Source of the DNA: the human T2T-CHM13v2.0 reference genome, Homo sapiens
Reading direction: 5' to 3' (one strand)
Length of the DNA: 64,000 nt
Assembly: GCF_009914755.1 (NCBI RefSeq)
Contig: NC_060947.1
Every line of letters starts with the position of its first letter. The stretch's first letter is position 1. The position numbers were made by a program, and so were the translations under genes. Positions 1 through 56,760 of the stretch are shown one piece after another. Under the pieces are notes generated by a model. The model had not been told where the DNA came from and ran no database searches. It worked only from the letters and a program-made list of their open reading frames with translations.

Positions 1-3000
1 TATCTGTTCTCACTCTCCAATTTAGCCATTAATTAGTAGGTGTCTTTAAATAGTTGGCAAATTAATAGTCTATGCCTGTGTTGACATCTGTTTAACTAAT
101 GATTTGTGCCCTCATTGACTGACATGTTGAAAATTTCCTGCATTCTTTCATATGCAATTTTTGATCAGGAAGAAAATTCCCAGAACACCCTTTTGGCTCC
201 ACTACCTTTACAGAGGTTGCTCCCCAAATTCTGCCTCCCTAGAAAGTTTTACATTGACTACCAGAAGGAATGGCAATAAACTCCTGTAGGCCCTTCCCTA
301 CCTAATATGTAATTCCCAGAGCCTAGTATGTCTGGGTTGGTCTGTGCCTGTGTGCCTGTCTATCTGTCTCTTTCACCCTACCATCTCTGGACGTGTCTTA
401 GCTACAATGGAGCAGGGAGAGCAGTGAGCATATCATCTCAACATTAAATGGGAGTGAAGGCTTCCTTACCCCTTCTCCCACTTTTTTTTCCCTAAGGCAG
501 GCTGAGGAGCACAGCTGGGGGAAAACAGTAACAGTGGCACATTCAACATATTACTTCTGGGTAAGCAATAGGTACTGATGAGTGACCACAATGAGAGACA
601 GAAGAGGGCAGCGTAGATAGCTCATTTATCTGCTGAGAAGCCAGTTCAGAAAATATTTAATAGTTGTGTCCACTGCTCCTATTTGAAAAGTCTCAGGGAA
701 GAAACAAAACACCATAAAATCACCAGAATTCAACAATGATACTAGAAGTCAACATCAGCATAAAATATAACAGAAATAAAACTAAGAGAGTGATCTTAGG
801 AAAAGACAATGAATAAAGAATTCAGTCCAACTTCCTAAGTCCCTAAATATGTTATTTATTGCCACTCTCAAGGAAATCATTTTCTTTCTATTATATTATG
901 TATGTTATGGCAGGGGATATATTAGGAAGAATGCCCACAGGATGGTAGGACCTTAGAATGTTTTATCAACTCTTATTTTTAAAGCCAATGATAGATTATA
1001 AATATATTCTGGTACATTTAGCTTGATGAAATATTACATAGCAGTTAAAATGATAATTAGGAAGACCATGTAGAAACATGGAAAATTGTTTATGATACAA
1101 TGTTAAAAAGTAGGACATAAAATGGTATATCAGTGTGATTACAACTCTGTAAATATATACACATATGGACAGATTTGAAGGGATTATGCAAAAGTGCAAA
1201 TAATTCTGTTATAGTTGATGGATTCTGGCTGGTTTTTGTTCCTATTTTTAAACTTCCTCTAATGCTGTTTTTTAATTGTCTTCATGATCAAAAATGGGAT
1301 AAAAGTCTTTGCCAGAGAGTGTAAAGAAAAGAAAATGCAGCTATAAGAAGGCTGCCTGGAATGAAATATTATCAAGGAAAGAGGAGGGAAGACCCAATGT
1401 CTTCTCAAGATCTCCTGCAGCCATAGTATCTAAGATAGTCACTTGCTAAAGATTACAAATAATAGATGTAAACTGCCCTTATCAAAAAAATAAGCGATGA
1501 GACATAAGAATATGGGAGTAGCTGGATAACCCCAAAGGGTCACCCTCGACCTCTATACCACACAAGTTTCTGGAAAAAGAAAGGCCAGGAGAAATGATTA
1601 GCTCCCTGGAGTCTTGCTTTTTTTATCCCCTTCTTTTGGCTGGCCTGATGGCTATCAAATTTTCCACATCAGTGGTGAACAGAGGGTAGATTAGGGGGTC
1701 AATCAATACTTGTCTACTCTCATTCACTCATTTTTGAAGGTATGTAAGTTTAAAATGAGTTGGCAGTGAAATGTGATTGTCAAAAAGCCTAATACCATTT
1801 TCAGTTAGAAAAAAGAAGAAATATATTGAGAGGCAAAAATGGGAGAGGCAATTGGAAGGTAGTCATACCACTGCAGGAGAGCAGAATTAAATTTTGAGTC
1901 CACCCTCTTTTCAGAGGAACACCAAGAAAATAGCACACAGCCAGAGGGGAGTGAGCAGGGTAGGGAGGGGCCTGAAAAGCAACATCATGAAGAATGATGG
2001 AAGACATAAAATTTGTTTGTCTTAGATAACACTCAGGGCCCATTGAAGGCCTGTCACAGGGCAGGGGGAACAAAAGGGGTCTGTGGCTCTTACTGCCAGG
2101 TATGCTTTGAACGCCCCATCTGAATGGTAACAGGGAACAGGGTACTATGGCTCAAGGGAGGCAGTTTCCTAGAGCCTAATCTCTGTCTCCTAGGAGTAAA
2201 GTGGGCATGGGTGGGAAGGCAGGCCAGAGAGTAGCTAAGATAAATGTGGGTATTATCAAATCAGTCACAACTGGCATAAATTAGCTCTGGCATTGTTATG
2301 GTAACAGCAAGGAAAGCTGCCCATCTATTTCACTTTGTTCTTAAACCCACCAGGGCTGATCTACGAGTTGAGACCTAGTGCATTGATCTAGAAGTAATGC
2401 CTTGATATGGGATATAAACAATACCCAAGATCTCCAGAAAAGATCCTAGAAACTACCAGAAAATAGGATGAACCAAACAGCCCCTGGATCATCTGGGGTT
2501 TAGGAAATTCTTTAGGGAAGGGCCCTCACAAAAAGTTTAGACCTCAGTGTCTCTGTCTCTAAAATGAAGACATCGAAAAAGATGTCCATGGATCCTTTCA
2601 GTTCTGACATTCTAGGGGTTTCATATGTCTTTTTTTTTTTGCCTGGAACCTGAGGCCTGATAGGCGACCTGACAAACATCTTGAAGACATTTTTAAGAAA
2701 ATTAGGAGATAATGACCATGGTTGTTATTCACAGCCGTATCCTCAAAGTTTAACAGAATACCTGGCATATAGTTGCTGCTCAGTTATTTGTCAACTAAAT
2801 GCTAATTAGTTCTTCCCATGCTGGTGATGATCAAAGGTAAGTTAGAAGCAGAATGTTCAAATTGGTGGTTTTCTTTTATTTCCTTCTTCCTCTCTTTGAG
2901 ATAGGAAACCCTTTCTTCAAATGAAGTAAAAAAGTTATTCAAAAACAAGAGAATAAAGAAGATACCTGCAACATGGAAAGTTGACAAGGAGTTCATATCT

Positions 3001-25639: not shown

Positions 25640-26158
<519 letters not shown>

Positions 26159-53800: not shown

Positions 53801-55577
53801 ATCTTTGCAAAGAAATAGGTTCTCAGTTCCATCCAGGGGGTCTCCACAAACGGACCAAAGAGTAATTAATAAGAACCAATGCCAGCAAACCTCCCAGATC
53901 ATGTTTACACCATGGTACTAATCTCACAAAAACCTCAGCTTCTCACCCACACCAAGTCAAGGATAGCATGCTTTGAGGCCCAAAACACCCTCTGACGCCA
54001 TTAAATAATACTCTCTGGGTCCTGTGGCCAAGACAATTTCAAAGGCCCCCTTCACAGCCCCTCTCCTTTCATAATCATTTCCAAAGAGACTGAACAACCG
54101 GACATGGAACTTGACAGCATAATGCCAGCAGATTTGCACATCAGACATGAACAGCCACCCACATGGGTGGAGGGGGAGCATGTGTGTAGATGTGTATGTG
54201 TCCTGATTCACTGCTATAATACATGAGCCATAAATGGCATTATTTCAAGCCAGGTAAGCAATGGAATGGGGAAAGCCTGCCTACATTAACAGGGGAGAAA
54301 GAAAATCAAAACGCAAAAAAACAAGTATTATACAGACTGGCATGAGACATTTTTTTTCCTGGCTCTGCCAAGAGCTTTCTCAGAGGAAACAGAAATATAA
54401 AAATAATAGCAATAGCAATAACAACAGAAACCACCACCACCATCTGATACAGACAAGCAGTCATATCTCAAACTGGAATGTTGCTTCCAGCTCATGTTTT
54501 CCATGCTCTCATCCCTTTCCTTCTAGACGTTTTTGGGTTTTGGTGGTCAAATTTAGCACCAAAATTTGATAACTCTTAATTTAGCACATTACAGACTTTC
54601 AGTTTGTTATGGGAATGTTTCAATTACAGAGACCTCTGATCTTAAAGTAACAAACGGGAGCAAACAATAGCATCACCACTTTCTCATCAGCCTTATCAAG
54701 TTACATTTAAAATGTAGTTCAAGAACATCATTGCAAACGAGATTATCCCAAAGGAGCCATATCCAAATACTATTATTCCCAAGGTGGATAAAGAGCTGTT
54801 TTTTCTTTCTTGTGGGGTTTTTTTTTTTTTTTGATGAGACAAACAAAATCCCCAAACTCAAATCCAGGGGTACAATCTTTGGGAAAGGGAGCCCAAATAG
54901 CTCCTGTCAAAGTCCTCTCTTGCCAGTTCAAAAAATCAGAGAATGCTTTCACATACTATTTCATGATTCCAAGGAAATTGACATTTTAAATATCTTAAAG
55001 CTTTAAGGTTCAAGAAGTGTTTTAAATGTGGCTTCTTTCAAAATTGAAAATTGTGAACCCTGGAGAGCAAATTGAGATTCAAAGGACACAGTCACCAACT
55101 GCCAGCACAACACACCCGTGTCACTTCCCAAATTCTTGCTTCTCCTTAGACACTAAAGAAGCATTTTCCCTAAATCCATTCCTTGCATCGATTATTTTCC
55201 CTCTAAATATCCACTGCAAAGACTGTCTTTCCTATGATGTCAAATATTCATCATGCTCTTCCACAAACCCTTTTCCCCTCAAACAAACCCAAATGCACTC
55301 CTGATGGCAAGAGAGAAATTTTGACTAAAATTCCCTGATGGAGTTTAAAGGTAGTCTTCAAGGAAATGAGTTAAGACACCACAGACAGCAAAGCCACTGT
55401 TTAAGGACGCAGAGCTTGCTCCATGAACGCCACATAGATTAAAAATGCACACACGCATGCACACTTAAATAGAAAGCATTTCTTCATCAACAATTTCACT
55501 CAAGCAATAGGCAACTATACGCGCAGGCATTCTTAAAAGACAAGACACGACAAAAGATTTAGGGAGAGATAATATAC

Positions 55578-55586
55578 CAACGTCAT
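55578..55586 (-). CDS. ARHGEF9: Collybistin start exon CDS (Met-Thr-Leu)
   Basis: ATG ACG TTG|GTATAT. Splicing to 25981 gives [11 protein letters not shown]..., the collybistin N-terminus. This numbering places the Gly of EEGWF at residue 55 and the Arg of QMRAN at residue 104, consistent with the disease positions G55 and R104 as I recall them. Confidence 0.9.
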
Positions 55587-55758
55587 ACATATCACAGCGA
55601 GGCCATGTTGAAGCTCAAAACGTTTTCCCCCCTGAGTAAGAAAGCTTGTTCTTTCTCTCTCTTTCCCTGTCTCTGTCTGTGATTTTTTTTTTTTCTCGGT
55701 GGCTCTCGGGATGAAATCAAAGCGAGAGTTCGCGACAGCTCAGGTGGCTGGACTCCAT

Positions 55759-55938
55759 TCAGCGCGTTCCCAGGAAAAACATGAGTATGACATTGACAAG
55801 CAGGAGGACTACAATCACGGCAAAAACGACTACAGTTTGCACATCCAGGGTCATGGTGCAATGCAGAACACTGTAGTGTTCCAGGTGGGGGGCCGGCAGA
55901 TTGGGAGATGTCAGTCTCTGTTCTGTCAGACTGTCCAT
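55759..55938 (-). CDS. Candidate 59-aa upstream-ORF microprotein with a C-terminal transmembrane helix (31-aa form from the internal ATG at 55854)
   Basis: Hand translation from ATG to TGA: MDSLTEQRLTSPNLPAPHLEHYSVLHCTMTLDVQTVVVFAVIVVLLLVNVILMFFLGTR. Residues 36-56 form a 21-aa hydrophobic span, encoded by varied, non-repetitive codons. Confidence 0.65.
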   Translation of the reverse strand: MDSLTEQRLTSPNLPAPHLEHYSVLHCTMTLDVQTVVVFAVIVVLLLVNVILMFFLGTR

Positions 55939-56014
55939 ACAGCCACCATGCTAGAAAGGAGAGGAGGAAGTAGGGTGGTTAGAGAAGGGCTGGGTTTGGC
56001 GCCCGAGTTTAGTC

Positions 56015-56042
56015 GGGGGAGGGGAGGGGGATGGGGACGGGG
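56015..56042 (+). other. G-quadruplex-forming motif
   Basis: GGGGGaGGGGaGGGGGatGGGGacGGGG: five G-runs of at least 4 with 1-2 nt loops. Confidence 0.75.
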
Positions 56043-56099
56043 TGCTTGGTTCCCCCCTTCTCAGGATTGGGCTGATCGTTTGTCCCTAGCTGAGAAATC

Positions 56100-56760
56100 T
56101 TAGCTTGCGCTGAAGTCGGCAGAGTCCAGCATTCTCTCTCGGGCGCCACGGGAAAGGCAAAATCCTAGCTTTCAAAGGGAAAGGCGGGGGGAACCTGTGA
56201 GTGGTTCTCCGGCGCCTGCTCAGTCTGTCCGGGCGTGCGTCCGTCCGCCTGCCTGGCTACCGGTCAGTCTCAGTCTCCCCTACTCCCTTTACTTCGCTCG
56301 TTTTCCTAAGCTTGCTCGCTCTCTTCGCTGGGCTCCCGGCTGCCAGACACTCGTTCGATCCCTGCCTTGCTGGCCCTATCCCTCTTCTCTCCCCATCCCC
56401 CGCTCAGCCCATAGGCTGCCTTTTTATTCACCGAGCGACTGCGGGCGCTTGCGTGAGGCGCGGCCAGAGCCACTGACATACCCGCCGACCAATAACAGAT
56501 GCCGCAGTAGCACGTTCGCTGCCCAGGGGCGGGACTTGCGCTGGCGTGCTAGCCGCGACCGCCAATCAGAGCCTCAAGGCTCCCAAGCAAGCTCGCTCTC
56601 CCCAGACCGGCGAGAGTCACCAGCCACCAGTTCTGGTTTGGGGGTGGGGAGCTTCTTGGGGGCGGATAGAGGGGGTATATAAGGAGATGGGGAGGAAAAG
56701 GACTGGGAAAGAGGGAGGGAAGGGACCCAATAGGATGCAAGGGGAGGAGATCACGTGAAG
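56100..56760. promoter_or_regulatory. ARHGEF9: CpG-rich promoter of ARHGEF9 (GC boxes, CCAAT boxes, TATA-like box, E-box)
   Basis: The main CpG-dense region of the window. GGGGCGGGAC at 56526-56535, GGGCGG near 56660, GCCAATCAG at 56561-56569, ACCAAT near 56488, TATATAAG at 56676-56683, TCACGTGA at 56751-56758. Confidence 0.85.
56482..56650 (-). other. ARHGEF9: Putative short non-coding first exon (5' end uncertain)
   Basis: Consensus-like donor GCGG|GTATGT at 56482/56481 inside the CpG-rich promoter, about 530 nt upstream of the 55950 acceptor. Confidence 0.5.

What the first reader, a model, noticed from the sequence alone, without database searches (positions are those of the whole stretch)
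55759..55938. Hidden tail-anchored membrane microprotein in the collybistin 5' leader (possible bicistronic locus)
Seen: a clean ATG-to-TGA ORF of 59 codons on the gene strand, absent from the supplied track (whose shortest ORFs are 60 aa), ending 172 nt before the collybistin ATG. The product has a polar 35-aa N-terminus, then VVVFAVIVVLLLVNVILMFFL (21 residues, one central Asn, 55771-55833), then a 3-residue tail GTR. The hydrophobic span uses varied synonymous codons (GTA/GTC/GTT/GTG; CTC/CTG/CTT), so it is not a repeat artefact. Established: this layout is typical of tail-anchored proteins, and collybistin recruits gephyrin to inhibitory postsynaptic membranes. Inference: a co-encoded membrane peptide could act at the ER or the synapse, or the ORF could throttle collybistin translation. 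It may already be listed as an uncharacterised 'novel protein' in recent annotation; I cannot check that, and I know of no function for it.
Basis: partly seen in the sequence, partly recalled or inferred. Interest (0 to 1): 0.88.

Follow-up and report, generated by a model that had tools for sequence, protein, structure and literature searches.

The report
SPICA microprotein in ARHGEF9 leader
The small ORF is real but already described: it is SPICA, a conserved brain membrane microprotein encoded ahead of collybistin, and it appears to have a sister, SMIM39, sitting in the same place ahead of the related gene ARHGEF4.

Summary
The 59-codon ORF at 55759-55938 (-) is there as described. It is not hidden. 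It is RefSeq gene LOC128031833 (hub table). Mackowiak 2015 lists it as a conserved 5'UTR sORF: the mouse protein is identical to the human one, phyloCSF is 474.8, and the frame is intact in 44 assemblies out to coelacanth. A 2018 preprint names it SPICA; its antibody peptide equals residues 1-26. That preprint reports Ribo-seq signal, a brain protein, and ATG-to-TAG null mice with normal collybistin but altered maternal and anxiety behaviour. ORF length alone is unremarkable: 85 of 1696 ATG ORFs in the window are as long or longer. One C-terminal helix is predicted; tail-anchored topology is plausible but untested. New here: SPICA's best non-self match in the human genome is SMIM39, and the reverse also holds. 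Profile comparison gives 97.6% probability, and 0 of 300 column shuffles reach the real score. Both ORFs lie in the exon spliced onto the homologous 180-nt SH3 exon of paralogous GEFs, ARHGEF9 and ARHGEF4. I found this link in no paper I could search. The molecular function remains unknown.

The parts
55759..55938 (-). SPICA coding sequence (RefSeq LOC128031833): 59 codons plus TGA
   Evidence: The preprint's antibody peptide equals residues 1-26. The mouse sORF in Mackowiak 2015 has the identical sequence.
55771..55833 (-). Codons of the hydrophobic segment, residues 36-56, with Asn49 invariant in both the SPICA and SMIM39 families
   Evidence: Hydropathy peak 3.35. AlphaFold2 helix at residues 33-58, with block-mean pLDDT of 86, 97 and 85 for residues 31-59. 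Asn present in 26 of 26 and 22 of 22 sequences.
55762..55854 (-). Conserved 31-residue core starting at the internal Met29 (-3 A, +4 A). It equals the whole zebrafish arhgef9b sORF and is the part shared with SMIM39.
   Evidence: Invariant columns start at Met29. Zebrafish 31-aa utr5 sORF. Start context. hhalign match covers residues 24-59.
55926..55949 (-). 7-codon mini-uORF in a strong start context (-3 A, +4 G), out of frame, overlapping the SPICA ATG
   Evidence: Its effect on the choice between Met1 and Met29 is inference.
55592..55606 (-). 4-codon mini-uORF (strong context) ending 1 nt before the collybistin ATG
55582..55590 (-). Downstream collybistin start ATG-TAT-GAC. The donor after 55582 joins it in frame to the SH3 exon.
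   Evidence: of the three annotated donors (55589, 55582, 55578), only 55582 gives an open frame into exon 25981-25802.
55578..56397 (-). ARHGEF9 leader exon in its longest annotated form (alternatively it starts at the 55950 acceptor). It carries the whole SPICA ORF and is absent from the selected transcript NM_001353921.2.
   Evidence: Hub annotation table; sequence.
25802..25981 (-). 180-nt SH3 exon of collybistin, onto which the SPICA exon is spliced. It is homologous to 180-nt exons on contig 2 (ARHGEF4) and contig 13.
   Evidence: 68-70% identity, same length. Exon-size lists.

Best explanation
[quoted passage not shown] It is a translated, strongly conserved 59-residue protein encoded in an alternative 5' leader exon of ARHGEF9, upstream of a collybistin start codon on the same mRNA. 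It acts as a protein in its own right, not as a mere translational brake. This much is shown by others or by sequence. Inferred from sequence: it is a single-pass membrane protein whose C-terminal helix (about residues 33-58) ends 1-3 residues before the C-terminus. A 59-residue chain cannot expose that helix before termination, so it must be inserted post-translationally, most likely by the tail-anchor routes into the ER with the N-terminus in the cytosol. The functional unit is the 31-36-residue core: Cys27, Met29-Thr35, and a helix with invariant Gln34 and Asn49. This core is all that zebrafish arhgef9b encodes and all that is shared with SMIM39. My best guess at mechanism is that the core binds another membrane protein, or itself, within the bilayer through these polar residues. 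Found here: SPICA and SMIM39 are paralogues. Each sits in the exon spliced onto the homologous SH3 exon of a paralogous GEF, ARHGEF9 and ARHGEF4. So the two-cistron arrangement most likely existed before these genes duplicated, early in vertebrates. My odds: identity and coding status about 0.97; membrane helix about 0.9; common origin with SMIM39 about 0.85; N-in tail-anchored topology about 0.65; intramembrane partner binding about 0.4.
For: Identity: the preprint's immunogen equals residues 1-26 of the translation. The only papers found for the peptide string or for SPICA+collybistin are that preprint.

Translation and trans function (preprint abstract and passages): the uORF has more Ribo-seq reads than the main ORF in human and mouse brain. 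Immunoblots show a brain-specific product, higher in hippocampus and cerebrum, appearing from postnatal day 12. Changing three ATGs to TAG removes SPICA without changing collybistin level or gephyrin/GABA-A clustering. Null mice show impaired nursing and more anxiety-like behaviour.

Conservation: 17 reptile and amphibian relatives at 73-90% identity. The mouse protein is identical to the human one, with phyloCSF 474.822, reading frame conserved in 45 species, 44 assemblies without frameshift or nonsense, phastCons overlap 1.000 and SignalP negative.

Membrane helix.

Core: invariant columns begin at Met29. The zebrafish arhgef9b utr5 sORF is 31 aa and starts there.

Paralogy: SPICA and SMIM39 are reciprocal best non-self hits in the 3.1-Gb genome (E 0.095 and 0.107). 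BLASTP gives 18 of 44 identical, ungapped, to both C-termini. hhalign gives 97.6% probability, E 3.9e-12. The real score of 58.0 compares with shuffle maxima of 18.4 and 33.8, so 0 of 150 reach it in each set. Sixteen of 36 positions share the majority residue, including invariant Cys, Gln and Asn. Base identity at codon positions 1, 2 and 3 is 25, 26 and 13 of 36, with flanks at 19-30%.

Synteny: the SMIM39 ORF lies 3.6 kb upstream, on the same strand, of an SH3 exon 68% identical to collybistin's. Transcript exon sizes run 63,382,180,192,180,233,130,132,244,69 (mouse Arhgef9) against 298,180,180,180,233,130,132,244,78 (mouse Arhgef4). The sORF exon directly precedes the first 180-nt exon in mouse Arhgef9, zebrafish arhgef9b and human ARHGEF4. 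[quoted passage not shown]
Against: The functional data come from one 2018 preprint. I found no peer-reviewed version or follow-up, and I did not see its figures or supplements. The preprint gives no localisation or topology data: 'membrane', 'transmembrane' and 'hydrophobic' each occur 0 times in its text.

SPICA's flank charges (N flank net -3, C tail +1) do not support N-in under the positive-inside rule. The N-in argument rests on the paralogue (+6).

The genome-wide hit to SMIM39 is weak by score alone (E about 0.1). A control hydrophobic ORF reached E 0.70. A single-sequence phmmer search of 1.84 billion representatives did not retrieve SMIM39 at E <= 0.001, and the SPICA profile search returned no protein named SMIM39 other than the SPICA-type P0009.

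Identity at codon position 2 is inflated because hydrophobic codons share T there. In 2 of 150 TM-only shuffles hhalign still gave probability of 90 or more. Conserved positions do not lie significantly on one helix face: 661 of 10,000 shuffles reach the observed moment. No third copy was seen at the third paralogue, so linkage is not universal in the GEF family. Deleting the whole SPICA region did raise downstream reporter translation, so a cis effect coexists.
Confidence: 0.8

Rival explanations
1. The ORF is mainly a cis-acting uORF. Its translation, or the presence of the region, sets how many ribosomes reach the collybistin ATG, and the peptide is incidental or acts only as a nascent chain.
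For: The leader holds several upstream ATGs besides SPICA: at 56396, 56132, 55949 and 55606, two of them in strong context. Deleting the entire SPICA region increased the downstream reporter (preprint passage).
Against: ATG-to-TAG changes abolished SPICA without changing the reporter or brain collybistin. Human and mouse proteins are identical, and phyloCSF is 474.8 across 45 species. A stable product is seen on immunoblots. A paralogue keeps the same residues through different codons: 9 of 16 identical residues use different codons.
Confidence: 0.07
2. The conservation reflects a DNA or RNA element, such as an enhancer, a promoter-proximal element or a structured leader or IRES, and the open frame is a by-product.
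For: RefSeq marks an enhancer and a silencer about 350-650 bp upstream (56283-56596, hub table). The mouse sORF's overlap with phastCons elements is 1.000, which does not by itself distinguish protein from nucleotide constraint.
Against: The ORF RNA folds no better than shuffles: z = +0.58, and 142 of 200 shuffles fold at least as well. No Rfam family comes near threshold; the best is 14.8 bits against a gathering score of 160. phyloCSF is strongly positive. Similarity to SMIM39 is confined to the coding core, is weakest at codon position 3 (13 of 36), and is 19-30% in the flanks, despite GC content of 0.51 against 0.76.
Confidence: 0.02
3. The similarity of SPICA and SMIM39 is convergence or shared composition of two unrelated hydrophobic microproteins, and their positions upstream of related GEFs are coincidental.
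For: Transmembrane segments match easily. The genome-wide E-values are only about 0.1, and a control ORF reached 0.70. The N-terminal halves are unrelated: 7, 6 and 6 of 20 bases identical at the three codon positions. Mackowiak's homology graph did not connect the two.
Against: None of 300 column shuffles reaches the real profile score (58.0 against maxima of 18.4 and 33.8). The polar residues Cys, Gln and Asn are invariant in both families in the same ungapped register from the C-terminus. Each is the other's best non-self hit in 3.1 Gb. Both lie in the exon spliced to the homologous 180-nt SH3 exon of genes whose later exon sizes also match. A chance top hit landing within a few kb of that exon in one of the two closest paralogues is of the order of 1 in 10^5 to 10^6 (my estimate, not computed).
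Confidence: 0.12
4. Chance ORF with no product.
For: 85 of 1696 ATG ORFs in the window are as long or longer, and a neighbouring intronic ORF is just as hydrophobic.
Against: All the conservation and expression evidence above.
Confidence: 0.01

Closest known systems
[quoted passage not shown]
   Same: It is the same ORF. The coordinates equal the RefSeq CDS (hub table). The immunogen peptide equals residues 1-26. The mouse sORF sequence is identical to the human one.
   Different: Nothing differs in the object itself. The preprint's main text does not mention a membrane segment or any relative, and the RefSeq name is still 'uncharacterized'.
SMIM39 (small integral membrane protein 39), found by whole-genome PhyloCSF (Mudge 2019, PMC6886504), in an alternative first exon of ARHGEF4
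   Same: Same size class (56 against 59 aa) and a single-exon CDS. The C-terminal 36 residues align without gaps to the C-terminus at 44% identity, with shared invariant Cys, Gln, Asn and a terminal basic residue. Same position in the exon spliced onto the SH3 exon of a paralogous GEF, and cotranscribed with it. Brain expression, with peptide support in frontal cortex.
   Different: It is a paralogue, not an orthologue. Identity over the last 31 residues averages 80% within each family and 44% between them. The N-terminal halves are unrelated: basic and Pro/Arg-rich in SMIM39 (net +6), acidic in SPICA (net -3). In the human ARHGEF4 exon no ATG follows the stop before the donor, whereas the ARHGEF9 exon carries the collybistin ATG. 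No functional data on SMIM39 were found (4 papers).
Tail-anchored membrane proteins (GET/TRC40 and EMC clients)
   Same: One hydrophobic helix at the extreme C-terminus, a 3-residue tail and no signal peptide. The protein is so short that insertion must follow termination (established reasoning; not tested).
   Different: Orientation and insertion route are unknown. SPICA's own charge distribution is neutral to opposite.
Single-helix regulatory micropeptides of muscle (phospholamban, sarcolipin, DWORF/STRIT1 and similar); names recalled, except DWORF, which appears
   Same: Works-like analogy only: a very small protein whose conserved part is one transmembrane helix containing a conserved Asn.
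   Different: No sequence relationship was detected. Pfam at E <= 10 gives only a sub-threshold ECSCR match (13.9 bits against 27). A family profile against all PDB chains gives 0 hits at E <= 10. Expression is in brain. Here the Asn lies in the C-terminal half of the helix.
Other vertebrate bicistronic mRNAs whose uORF encodes a functional protein (general class; examples recalled, not checked here)
   Same: [quoted passage not shown]
   Different: Here the arrangement is apparently retained in two paralogous genes since before their duplication. I did not find this described in print.

Membership tests
SPICA / LOC128031833 (identity) | Same protein sequence as the published SPICA product | tested here: met
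   Residues 1-26 of the translation equal the antibody peptide quoted in the preprint's Methods. The full 59 residues equal the mouse Arhgef9 utr5 sORF in Mackowiak 2015.
SPICA / LOC128031833 (identity) | Lies in the 5' leader of ARHGEF9 transcripts, upstream of the collybistin start | tested here: met
   The ORF is inside exon 55578-55950/56397. The ATG at 55590 joins in frame to the SH3 exon via the donor after 55582 (hub table).
Protein-coding sORF (conserved, translated) | Reading frame intact and under codon-level constraint across species | tested here: met
   Full-length relatives at 73-90% identity in reptiles and amphibians. From print: phyloCSF 474.822 and 44 assemblies without frameshift or nonsense. 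I could not compute dN/dS myself because no orthologous DNA was available.
Protein-coding sORF (conserved, translated) | Ribosome footprints and a detectable product | not testable with these tools
   Reported in the preprint (Ribo-seq in human and mouse brain; immunoblots with two antibodies; signal lost in null mice), seen as text passages only.
Tail-anchored membrane protein | Single transmembrane helix within about 30 residues of the C-terminus, with a short tail | tested here: met
   Hydrophobic run at residues 36-56 and a tail of 3 residues. Predicted helix at 33-58 with high pLDDT.
Tail-anchored membrane protein | No N-terminal signal peptide | tested here: met
   The N-terminal 35 residues are polar, with hydropathy windows at or below 0.22 up to window 18-36. 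The SignalP column reads False for the identical mouse protein.
Tail-anchored membrane protein | N-terminus cytosolic; post-translational insertion by GET/TRC40, EMC or a related route | not testable with these tools
   Charge bias is ambiguous for SPICA (N flank -3, tail +1) and favours N-in for SMIM39 (+6). No localisation data appear in the preprint text.
SMIM39 family (as a paralogous member of one superfamily) | Significant profile-level similarity of the conserved core, beyond composition | tested here: met
   hhalign 97.6%, E 3.9e-12. None of 150 + 150 column shuffles reaches the real score. A joint HMM scores 74.0 and 72.0 bits for the two ORFs, against 12.0 bits or less elsewhere in about 133 kb scanned.
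SMIM39 family (as a paralogous member of one superfamily) | Equivalent genomic position: the exon spliced onto the SH3 exon of an Asef/collybistin-type GEF | tested here: met
   (own genome), and exon tables. Mudge Data S2 text.
SMIM39 family (orthologue of SMIM39 itself) | Groups with SMIM39 sequences and not apart from them | tested here: not met
   Over the last 31 residues, identity averages 80% within each family and 44% between them (maximum 58%). SPICA is therefore a distinct paralogue. The snake protein named SMIM39 (P0009) is SPICA-type.
Phospholamban / sarcolipin-type micropeptides | Match to the family's sequence models or to solved members | tested here: not met
   No such Pfam family at E <= 10. 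0 PDB chains at E <= 10 with the family profile.
Purely cis-acting regulatory uORF | Removing its start codon changes main-ORF translation; the peptide sequence is unconstrained | not testable with these tools
   From print, not met: ATG-to-TAG changes left the reporter and collybistin unchanged, and the peptide is highly constrained.

The most novel reading that the evidence does not exclude
SPICA and SMIM39 descend from one microprotein cistron that already sat in front of the SH3 exon of the ancestral Asef/collybistin-type GEF gene before the early vertebrate duplications. The linkage has been kept in two paralogues for over 400 million years because the membrane microprotein and the GEF work together, for example as a membrane-embedded partner made from the same mRNA at the same place and time. 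On this reading it is a vertebrate operon-like unit and not an accident of transcript structure. The 31-residue core (Met29 onwards), possibly also made on its own by initiation at Met29 after the overlapping 7-codon mini-uORF, would be the active part.
Probability: 0.3. Interest if true: 0.7.

Novelty: already known. Interest (0 to 1): 0.35.

Why it matters
The ORF itself is no discovery. It has been catalogued (2015), studied in mice (2018 preprint) and annotated in RefSeq. It still matters for three reasons. First, ARHGEF9 is a disease gene for X-linked intellectual disability, epilepsy and anxiety-related phenotypes. The preprint argues that deletions or mRNA-destabilising alleles remove two proteins, not one, so variants in this exon deserve separate interpretation. 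Second, the protein's biochemical function is still unknown. The preprint's text does not mention a membrane segment (0 occurrences of 'membrane', 'transmembrane' or 'hydrophobic'), although that segment sharply narrows where to look. Third, the relationship to SMIM39 shown here would make this a two-member family of brain membrane microproteins, each tied to a paralogous Rho-GEF. That gives a natural test for redundancy (double knockouts) and for whether co-encoding reflects a joint function.

Tried and rejected
The binding idea remains untested.

3. Own-genome search with the family alignment: this query type is not accepted for this genome. I repeated it with single proteins.

4. One conserved helix face (heptad-like spacing of the invariant positions): not significant. 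661 of 10,000 shuffles reach the moment at 100 degrees and 2089 of 10,000 at 102.9 degrees. Dropped.

5. A third copy at the third paralogue: the family HMM over the six-frame translation of 60 kb upstream of the contig-13 SH3 exon gave at best 7.5 bits, E 0.73. Genome-wide protein searches found nothing else credible; L003 has an internal stop and no ORF. Only the best candidates are scored by that tool, and alternative first exons further upstream were not scanned.

6. Pfam: only ECSCR, below its cut-off. PDB profile search: 0 hits. ESM Atlas: holds the sequence but gives no usable neighbour. Rfam: only noise. RNA folding: not unusual.

7. An SH3-ligand idea. SMIM39 has a basic-x-x-P-x-x-P stretch near its N-terminus, and SPICA has L-P-A-P (both seen by eye). 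These N-terminal features are not shared between the families or with the fish forms, so they are not ancestral. I make no claim from them.

8. dN/dS on orthologous DNA: not possible, because no vertebrate genome other than the window's own is reachable with these tools.
Full report
OBSERVATION. On the minus strand, window 55938-55759 reads ATG...TGA with 59 sense codons. The product has a polar N-terminal 35 residues. Residues 36-56 (window 55833-55771) are hydrophobic, with a 19-residue Kyte-Doolittle peak of 3.35. Asn49 lies inside this run, and the tail is Gly-Thr-Arg. There are two further in-frame ATGs, Met29 at 55854 and Met53 at 55782. The gap to the next cistron's ATG (55590) is 168 nt, not 172.

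IS IT MORE THAN CHANCE? Not by length: 85 of the window's 1696 ATG ORFs have 59 or more codons. Not by hydrophobicity either: an intronic ORF 1.3 kb downstream (54306-54464, minus strand, 52 codons) peaks at 3.40. That ORF served as a control. It scores 1.3 bits against the family model, and its best non-self genome hits are E 0.70 (with an internal stop) and 4.2. Conservation is what separates the two. A word-indexed search of 5.8 billion proteins returned 17 relatives at E <= 0.01. Fifteen of them (P0002-P0016) align over the whole query at 73-90% identity. Most are from squamates and amphibians, and several are named 'uncharacterized LOC128031833 homolog'. An exhaustive phmmer search of 1.84 billion cluster representatives gave 10 proteins at E <= 0.001. 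A profile search gave 38 at E <= 1 among 4791 candidates.

WHAT IT IS. The hub's table already shows RefSeq gene LOC128031833 (NM_001414729.1) with exactly this CDS. No paper holds that LOC name (0 papers). However, the search 'ARHGEF9 + uORF' found one preprint: Kitano, Pratt, Takao and Aizawa, bioRxiv 10.1101/325571, 2018. I read its outline, abstract and passages, not its figures or supplements. It names a uORF of ARHGEF9 'SPICA'. The peptide used to raise its antibody is identical to residues 1-26 of the translation.

The preprint reports the following:
- More Ribo-seq reads on the uORF than on the main ORF in human and mouse brain.
- A brain-specific product on immunoblots, higher in hippocampus and cerebrum, first seen after postnatal day 12.
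- Replacing the first ATG and two internal in-frame ATGs by TAG abolishes SPICA but leaves a downstream reporter, brain collybistin and gephyrin/GABA-A receptor clustering unchanged.
- Deleting the whole region raises the reporter.
- SPICA-null mice show impaired nursing with poor pup survival, and more anxiety-like behaviour.

I found no later paper on it (the second paper is about plant MSH1).

Earlier still, the supplementary tables of Mackowiak et al. 2015 (PMC4568590) list a mouse Arhgef9 'utr5' sORF of 59 aa whose sequence is identical to the human one. I saw the table rows and column legend; the main text does not name the gene. The row gives phyloCSF 474.822, reading frame conserved in 45 species, and SVM-predicted True. 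It also gives phastCons overlap 1.000, signal peptide False, and 44 assemblies with conserved start, stop and splice sites and no frameshift or nonsense. Those assemblies run from mammals through platypus, four birds, anole, turtle and Xenopus to coelacanth. The row names a human counterpart on ENST00000253401. The zebrafish table lists a 31-aa utr5 sORF in arhgef9b, conserved in 5 fish, that begins at the equivalent of Met29.

ANATOMY OF THE LOCUS. The ORF lies wholly inside the leader exon 55578-55950, or 55578-56397 in its first-exon form. The selected transcript NM_001353921.2 lacks this exon (hub table), so only a subset of ARHGEF9 mRNAs is bicistronic.

On the gene strand the longest leader contains these ATGs:
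- 56396 (6 codons).
- 56132 (10 codons).
- 55949 (7 codons; -3 A, +4 G; out of frame, ending 12 nt past the SPICA ATG).
- SPICA Met1 at 55938 (-3 T, +4 G).
- Met29 at 55854 (-3 A, +4 A).
- A 4-codon ORF at 55606 (strong context).
- The collybistin ATG at 55590.

Of the three annotated donors, only the one after 55582 joins ATG-TAT-GAC in frame to the SH3 exon 25981-25802. My inference is that ribosomes translating the strong 7-codon mini-uORF skip Met1 and could resume at Met29, giving the 31-residue core that fish encode. This is untested. The antibody in the preprint sees only the long form.

THE PROTEIN. AlphaFold2 with a 27-sequence alignment gives one confident helix at residues 33-58, with block-mean pLDDT of 86, 97 and 85 for residues 31-59. 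It also gives a low-confidence short helix at 19-29 and an unstructured N-terminus. Mean pLDDT is 70.9. Invariant columns start at Met29: in the 18-sequence alignment they are Met29 to Thr35, Val37, Leu47, Leu56 and Arg59, and a similar set appears in the cleaned 27-sequence alignment.

Three of the four features of a tail-anchored protein are met: a single C-terminal helix, a 3-residue tail and no signal peptide. Orientation is not established. SPICA's N flank has net charge -3 and its tail +1, which does not favour N-in. Homologous helices are expected to share orientation, and the paralogue's flank is +6. On that basis I put N-in at about 0.65. The preprint text has no occurrence of 'transmembrane', 'membrane' or 'hydrophobic'.

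No known family claims the protein. Pfam gives only ECSCR at 13.9 bits against a cut-off of 27. The family profile finds 0 PDB chains at E <= 10. The ESM Atlas holds the sequence but returns no usable neighbour.

A RELATIVE: SMIM39. One snake homologue (P0009) carries the name 'small integral membrane protein 39'. Four papers hold 'SMIM39':
- Mudge et al. 2019 (PMC6886504) mentions peptide support in frontal cortex and brain-specific expression.
- A review table lists SMIM39 among the aliases of ARHGEF4.
- A 2026 review places it at 2q21.1 beside ARHGEF4.
- I did not open the fourth paper.

Mudge's Supplemental Data S2 describes SMIM39 as a 56-aa, one-exon CDS. [quoted passage not shown] It is conserved in vertebrates with a zebrafish gene (one note cell is truncated by 442 characters).

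I then searched the window's own 3.1-Gb genome in six frames. With SPICA as query, the best non-self match is contig 2:131469447-131469572 (E 0.095, 38% identity). That locus holds a 56-codon ORF identical to the SMIM39 sequence in the supplement. With that ORF as query, the best and only non-self match is SPICA (E 0.107). These E-values are weak on their own. The third hit (contig 10, E 0.21) has an internal stop and no ORF.

Stronger tests followed:
- BLASTP gives 18 of 44 identities with no gap, ending at both C-termini.
- I aligned 27 SPICA-type sequences (A3). I left out P0016-P0019, P0022, P0023, P0027, P0029, P0032, P0034 and P0038-P0040, which are extended, truncated or frame-shifted predictions.
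- I aligned 25 SMIM39-type sequences (A2): the human ORF plus 24 of the 28 hits. I left out P0051, P0055, P0065 and P0066, which are longer or partial.
- hhalign of A3 against A2 gives 97.6% probability, E 3.9e-12, over 36 columns to both C-termini.
- Shuffling the last 36 columns of A2 gives scores of 11.9 +/- 2.4 (maximum 18.4). Shuffling only the 25 TM columns gives 21.7 +/- 4.0 (maximum 33.8). The real score is 58.0, so 0 of 150 shuffles reach it in each set. In 2 of 150 TM-only shuffles hhalign still gave probability of 90 or more. The reversed alignment scores 16.6.
- I counted residues in ungapped register from the C-terminus in 26 SPICA-type and 22 SMIM39-type sequences. I dropped P0037, which has a deletion in the helix, and P0060, P0062 and P0064, which had low coverage. 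Sixteen of 36 positions share the majority residue. Cys(-33), Gln(-26), Val(-22), Asn(-11) and Leu(-8) are invariant in both families.
- Identity over the last 31 residues averages 80% within each family and 44% between them (range 26-58%). P0009 is 90% identical to human SPICA and 55% to human SMIM39, so its name is a paralogue-level label.
- At the DNA level, the 36 core codons of the two human genes share 25, 26 and 13 bases at codon positions 1, 2 and 3. Nine of the 16 identical residues use different codons. GC content is 0.51 against 0.76. The flanks and the N-terminal 20 codons are at 19-35% identity. One caveat applies: hydrophobic codons share T at position 2, which inflates that count.

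SYNTENY. The collybistin SH3 exon (window 25802-25981, 60 codons) finds two 60-codon exons in the genome at 70% (contig 13) and 68% (contig 2:131473168-131473347, + strand) identity. The next best hit is 42% (15 matches in all; alignment). The contig-2 exon contains the string that Mackowiak's table labels ARHGEF4. That contig 13 is SPATA13/Asef2 is my recollection, not a tool result.

SMIM39 ends 3.6 kb upstream of the contig-2 exon on the same strand. SPICA lies 29.8 kb upstream of the collybistin exon on the same strand. Transcript tables give the following exon sizes, in transcript order:
- Mouse Arhgef9: 63, 382 (holds the sORF), 180, 192, 180, 233, 130, 132, 244, 69, 3211.
- Zebrafish arhgef9b: 56, 256 (holds the sORF), 180, 201, 180, 233, 130, 132, 244, 69, 2935.
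- Mouse Arhgef4: 298, 180, 180, 180, 233, 130, 132, 244, 78, 1632 (sORF typed utr5).
- Human ARHGEF4 transcript ENST00000439368: 317 (holds the sORF), then 180.

In the human ARHGEF4 exon the stop is followed by 26 nt without an ATG and then a GT donor. So both microprotein ORFs occupy the exon spliced directly onto the homologous SH3 exon of paralogous genes. Both families have fish members. The duplication is therefore at least as old as bony vertebrates. The simplest history is one ancestral two-cistron gene that was duplicated together with its GEF; this is inference. No third copy was found: the genome-wide searches gave nothing else, and the family HMM over 60 kb upstream of the contig-13 exon gave at best 7.5 bits, against 74.0 and 72.0 for the two real copies.

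IS THE LINK IN PRINT? I did not find it.
- The preprint has 0 occurrences of ARHGEF4, Asef or paralog.
- Mudge 2019 has 0 occurrences of ARHGEF9 in the main text and in the 8 supplement files searched. Two files were not searched, and one cell is cut.
- In Mackowiak's homology-graph column, the Arhgef9 sORF is linked only to its human orthologue, the ARHGEF4 sORFs only to each other across species, and the zebrafish arhgef9b sORF to nothing.
- 'ARHGEF9 + ARHGEF4 + small ORF' returns 0 papers.

Family databases other than Pfam could not be consulted. NCBI's naming of a SPICA-type snake protein as SMIM39 suggests that an annotation pipeline has noticed the similarity.

MECHANISM. Shown by others: SPICA is a separate, stable brain protein whose loss changes behaviour without changing collybistin. 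Shown here by prediction: it has one C-terminal membrane helix, and a conserved 31-36-residue core is shared with fish forms and with SMIM39. Inferred: it is inserted post-translationally as a tail-anchored protein, and its function works through intramembrane contacts that use the invariant Gln and Asn and a juxtamembrane Cys. A test for a single conserved helix face was not significant (661 of 10,000 shuffles). An RNA-level explanation finds no support.

VERDICT. The residual interest lies in two things. One is the unrecognised membrane nature of SPICA. The other is its apparent paralogy with SMIM39 in an equivalent position in ARHGEF4, which points to an old, retained two-cistron gene design.

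Noticed in passing
window 54306-54464 (-): Intronic 52-codon ATG ORF with a hydrophobic run even stronger than SPICA's (hydropathy peak 3.40 against 3.35). It has no relatives: 1.3 bits against the family HMM, and its best non-self genome hits are E 0.70 (with a stop inside) and 4.2. It looks like chance and was useful as a negative control.
   Followed up: yes
window 55926-55949 (-): A 7-codon mini-uORF in a strong start context begins at the second base of the exon form that starts at 55950 and overlaps the SPICA ATG out of frame. It could shift initiation from Met1 to Met29 (55854), which would give the 31-residue core that zebrafish arhgef9b encodes. I did not check whether it is conserved.
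   Followed up: partly
window 55578-55590 (-): Three annotated alternative donors (after 55589, 55582 and 55578) lie within 12 nt. Only 55582 keeps the ATG at 55590 in frame with the SH3 exon. The other two give stops when joined to that exon, so those transcripts must use another start or another acceptor.
   Followed up: partly
protein P0009 (database hit, snake): It is named 'small integral membrane protein 39' by its source but is SPICA-type: 90% identical to human SPICA and 55% to human SMIM39 over the last 31 residues. The name is a paralogue-level label.
   Followed up: yes
G000 contig 13, 23433295-23493294 (L012-L017): The third GEF paralogue's SH3 exon (70% identical to collybistin's) has no SPICA/SMIM39-like ORF in the 60 kb upstream (best 7.5 bits). 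The copy may be lost or may lie at a more distant first exon.
   Followed up: partly
L002 1462-1632 (+) (contig 2, SMIM39): SMIM39's N-terminal half is Arg/Pro-rich (net +6) and includes a basic-x-x-P-x-x-P stretch conserved in mammals. SPICA's N-terminal half is acidic and has a conserved L-P-A-P in tetrapods. The two N-termini are unrelated. I could not test whether either contacts the SH3 domain of its GEF.
   Followed up: no
window 56153-56337 (-): A weak Rfam match to IRES_VEGF_A in the leader (14.8 bits against a gathering score of 160, E 0.92). I take it as noise.
   Followed up: yes
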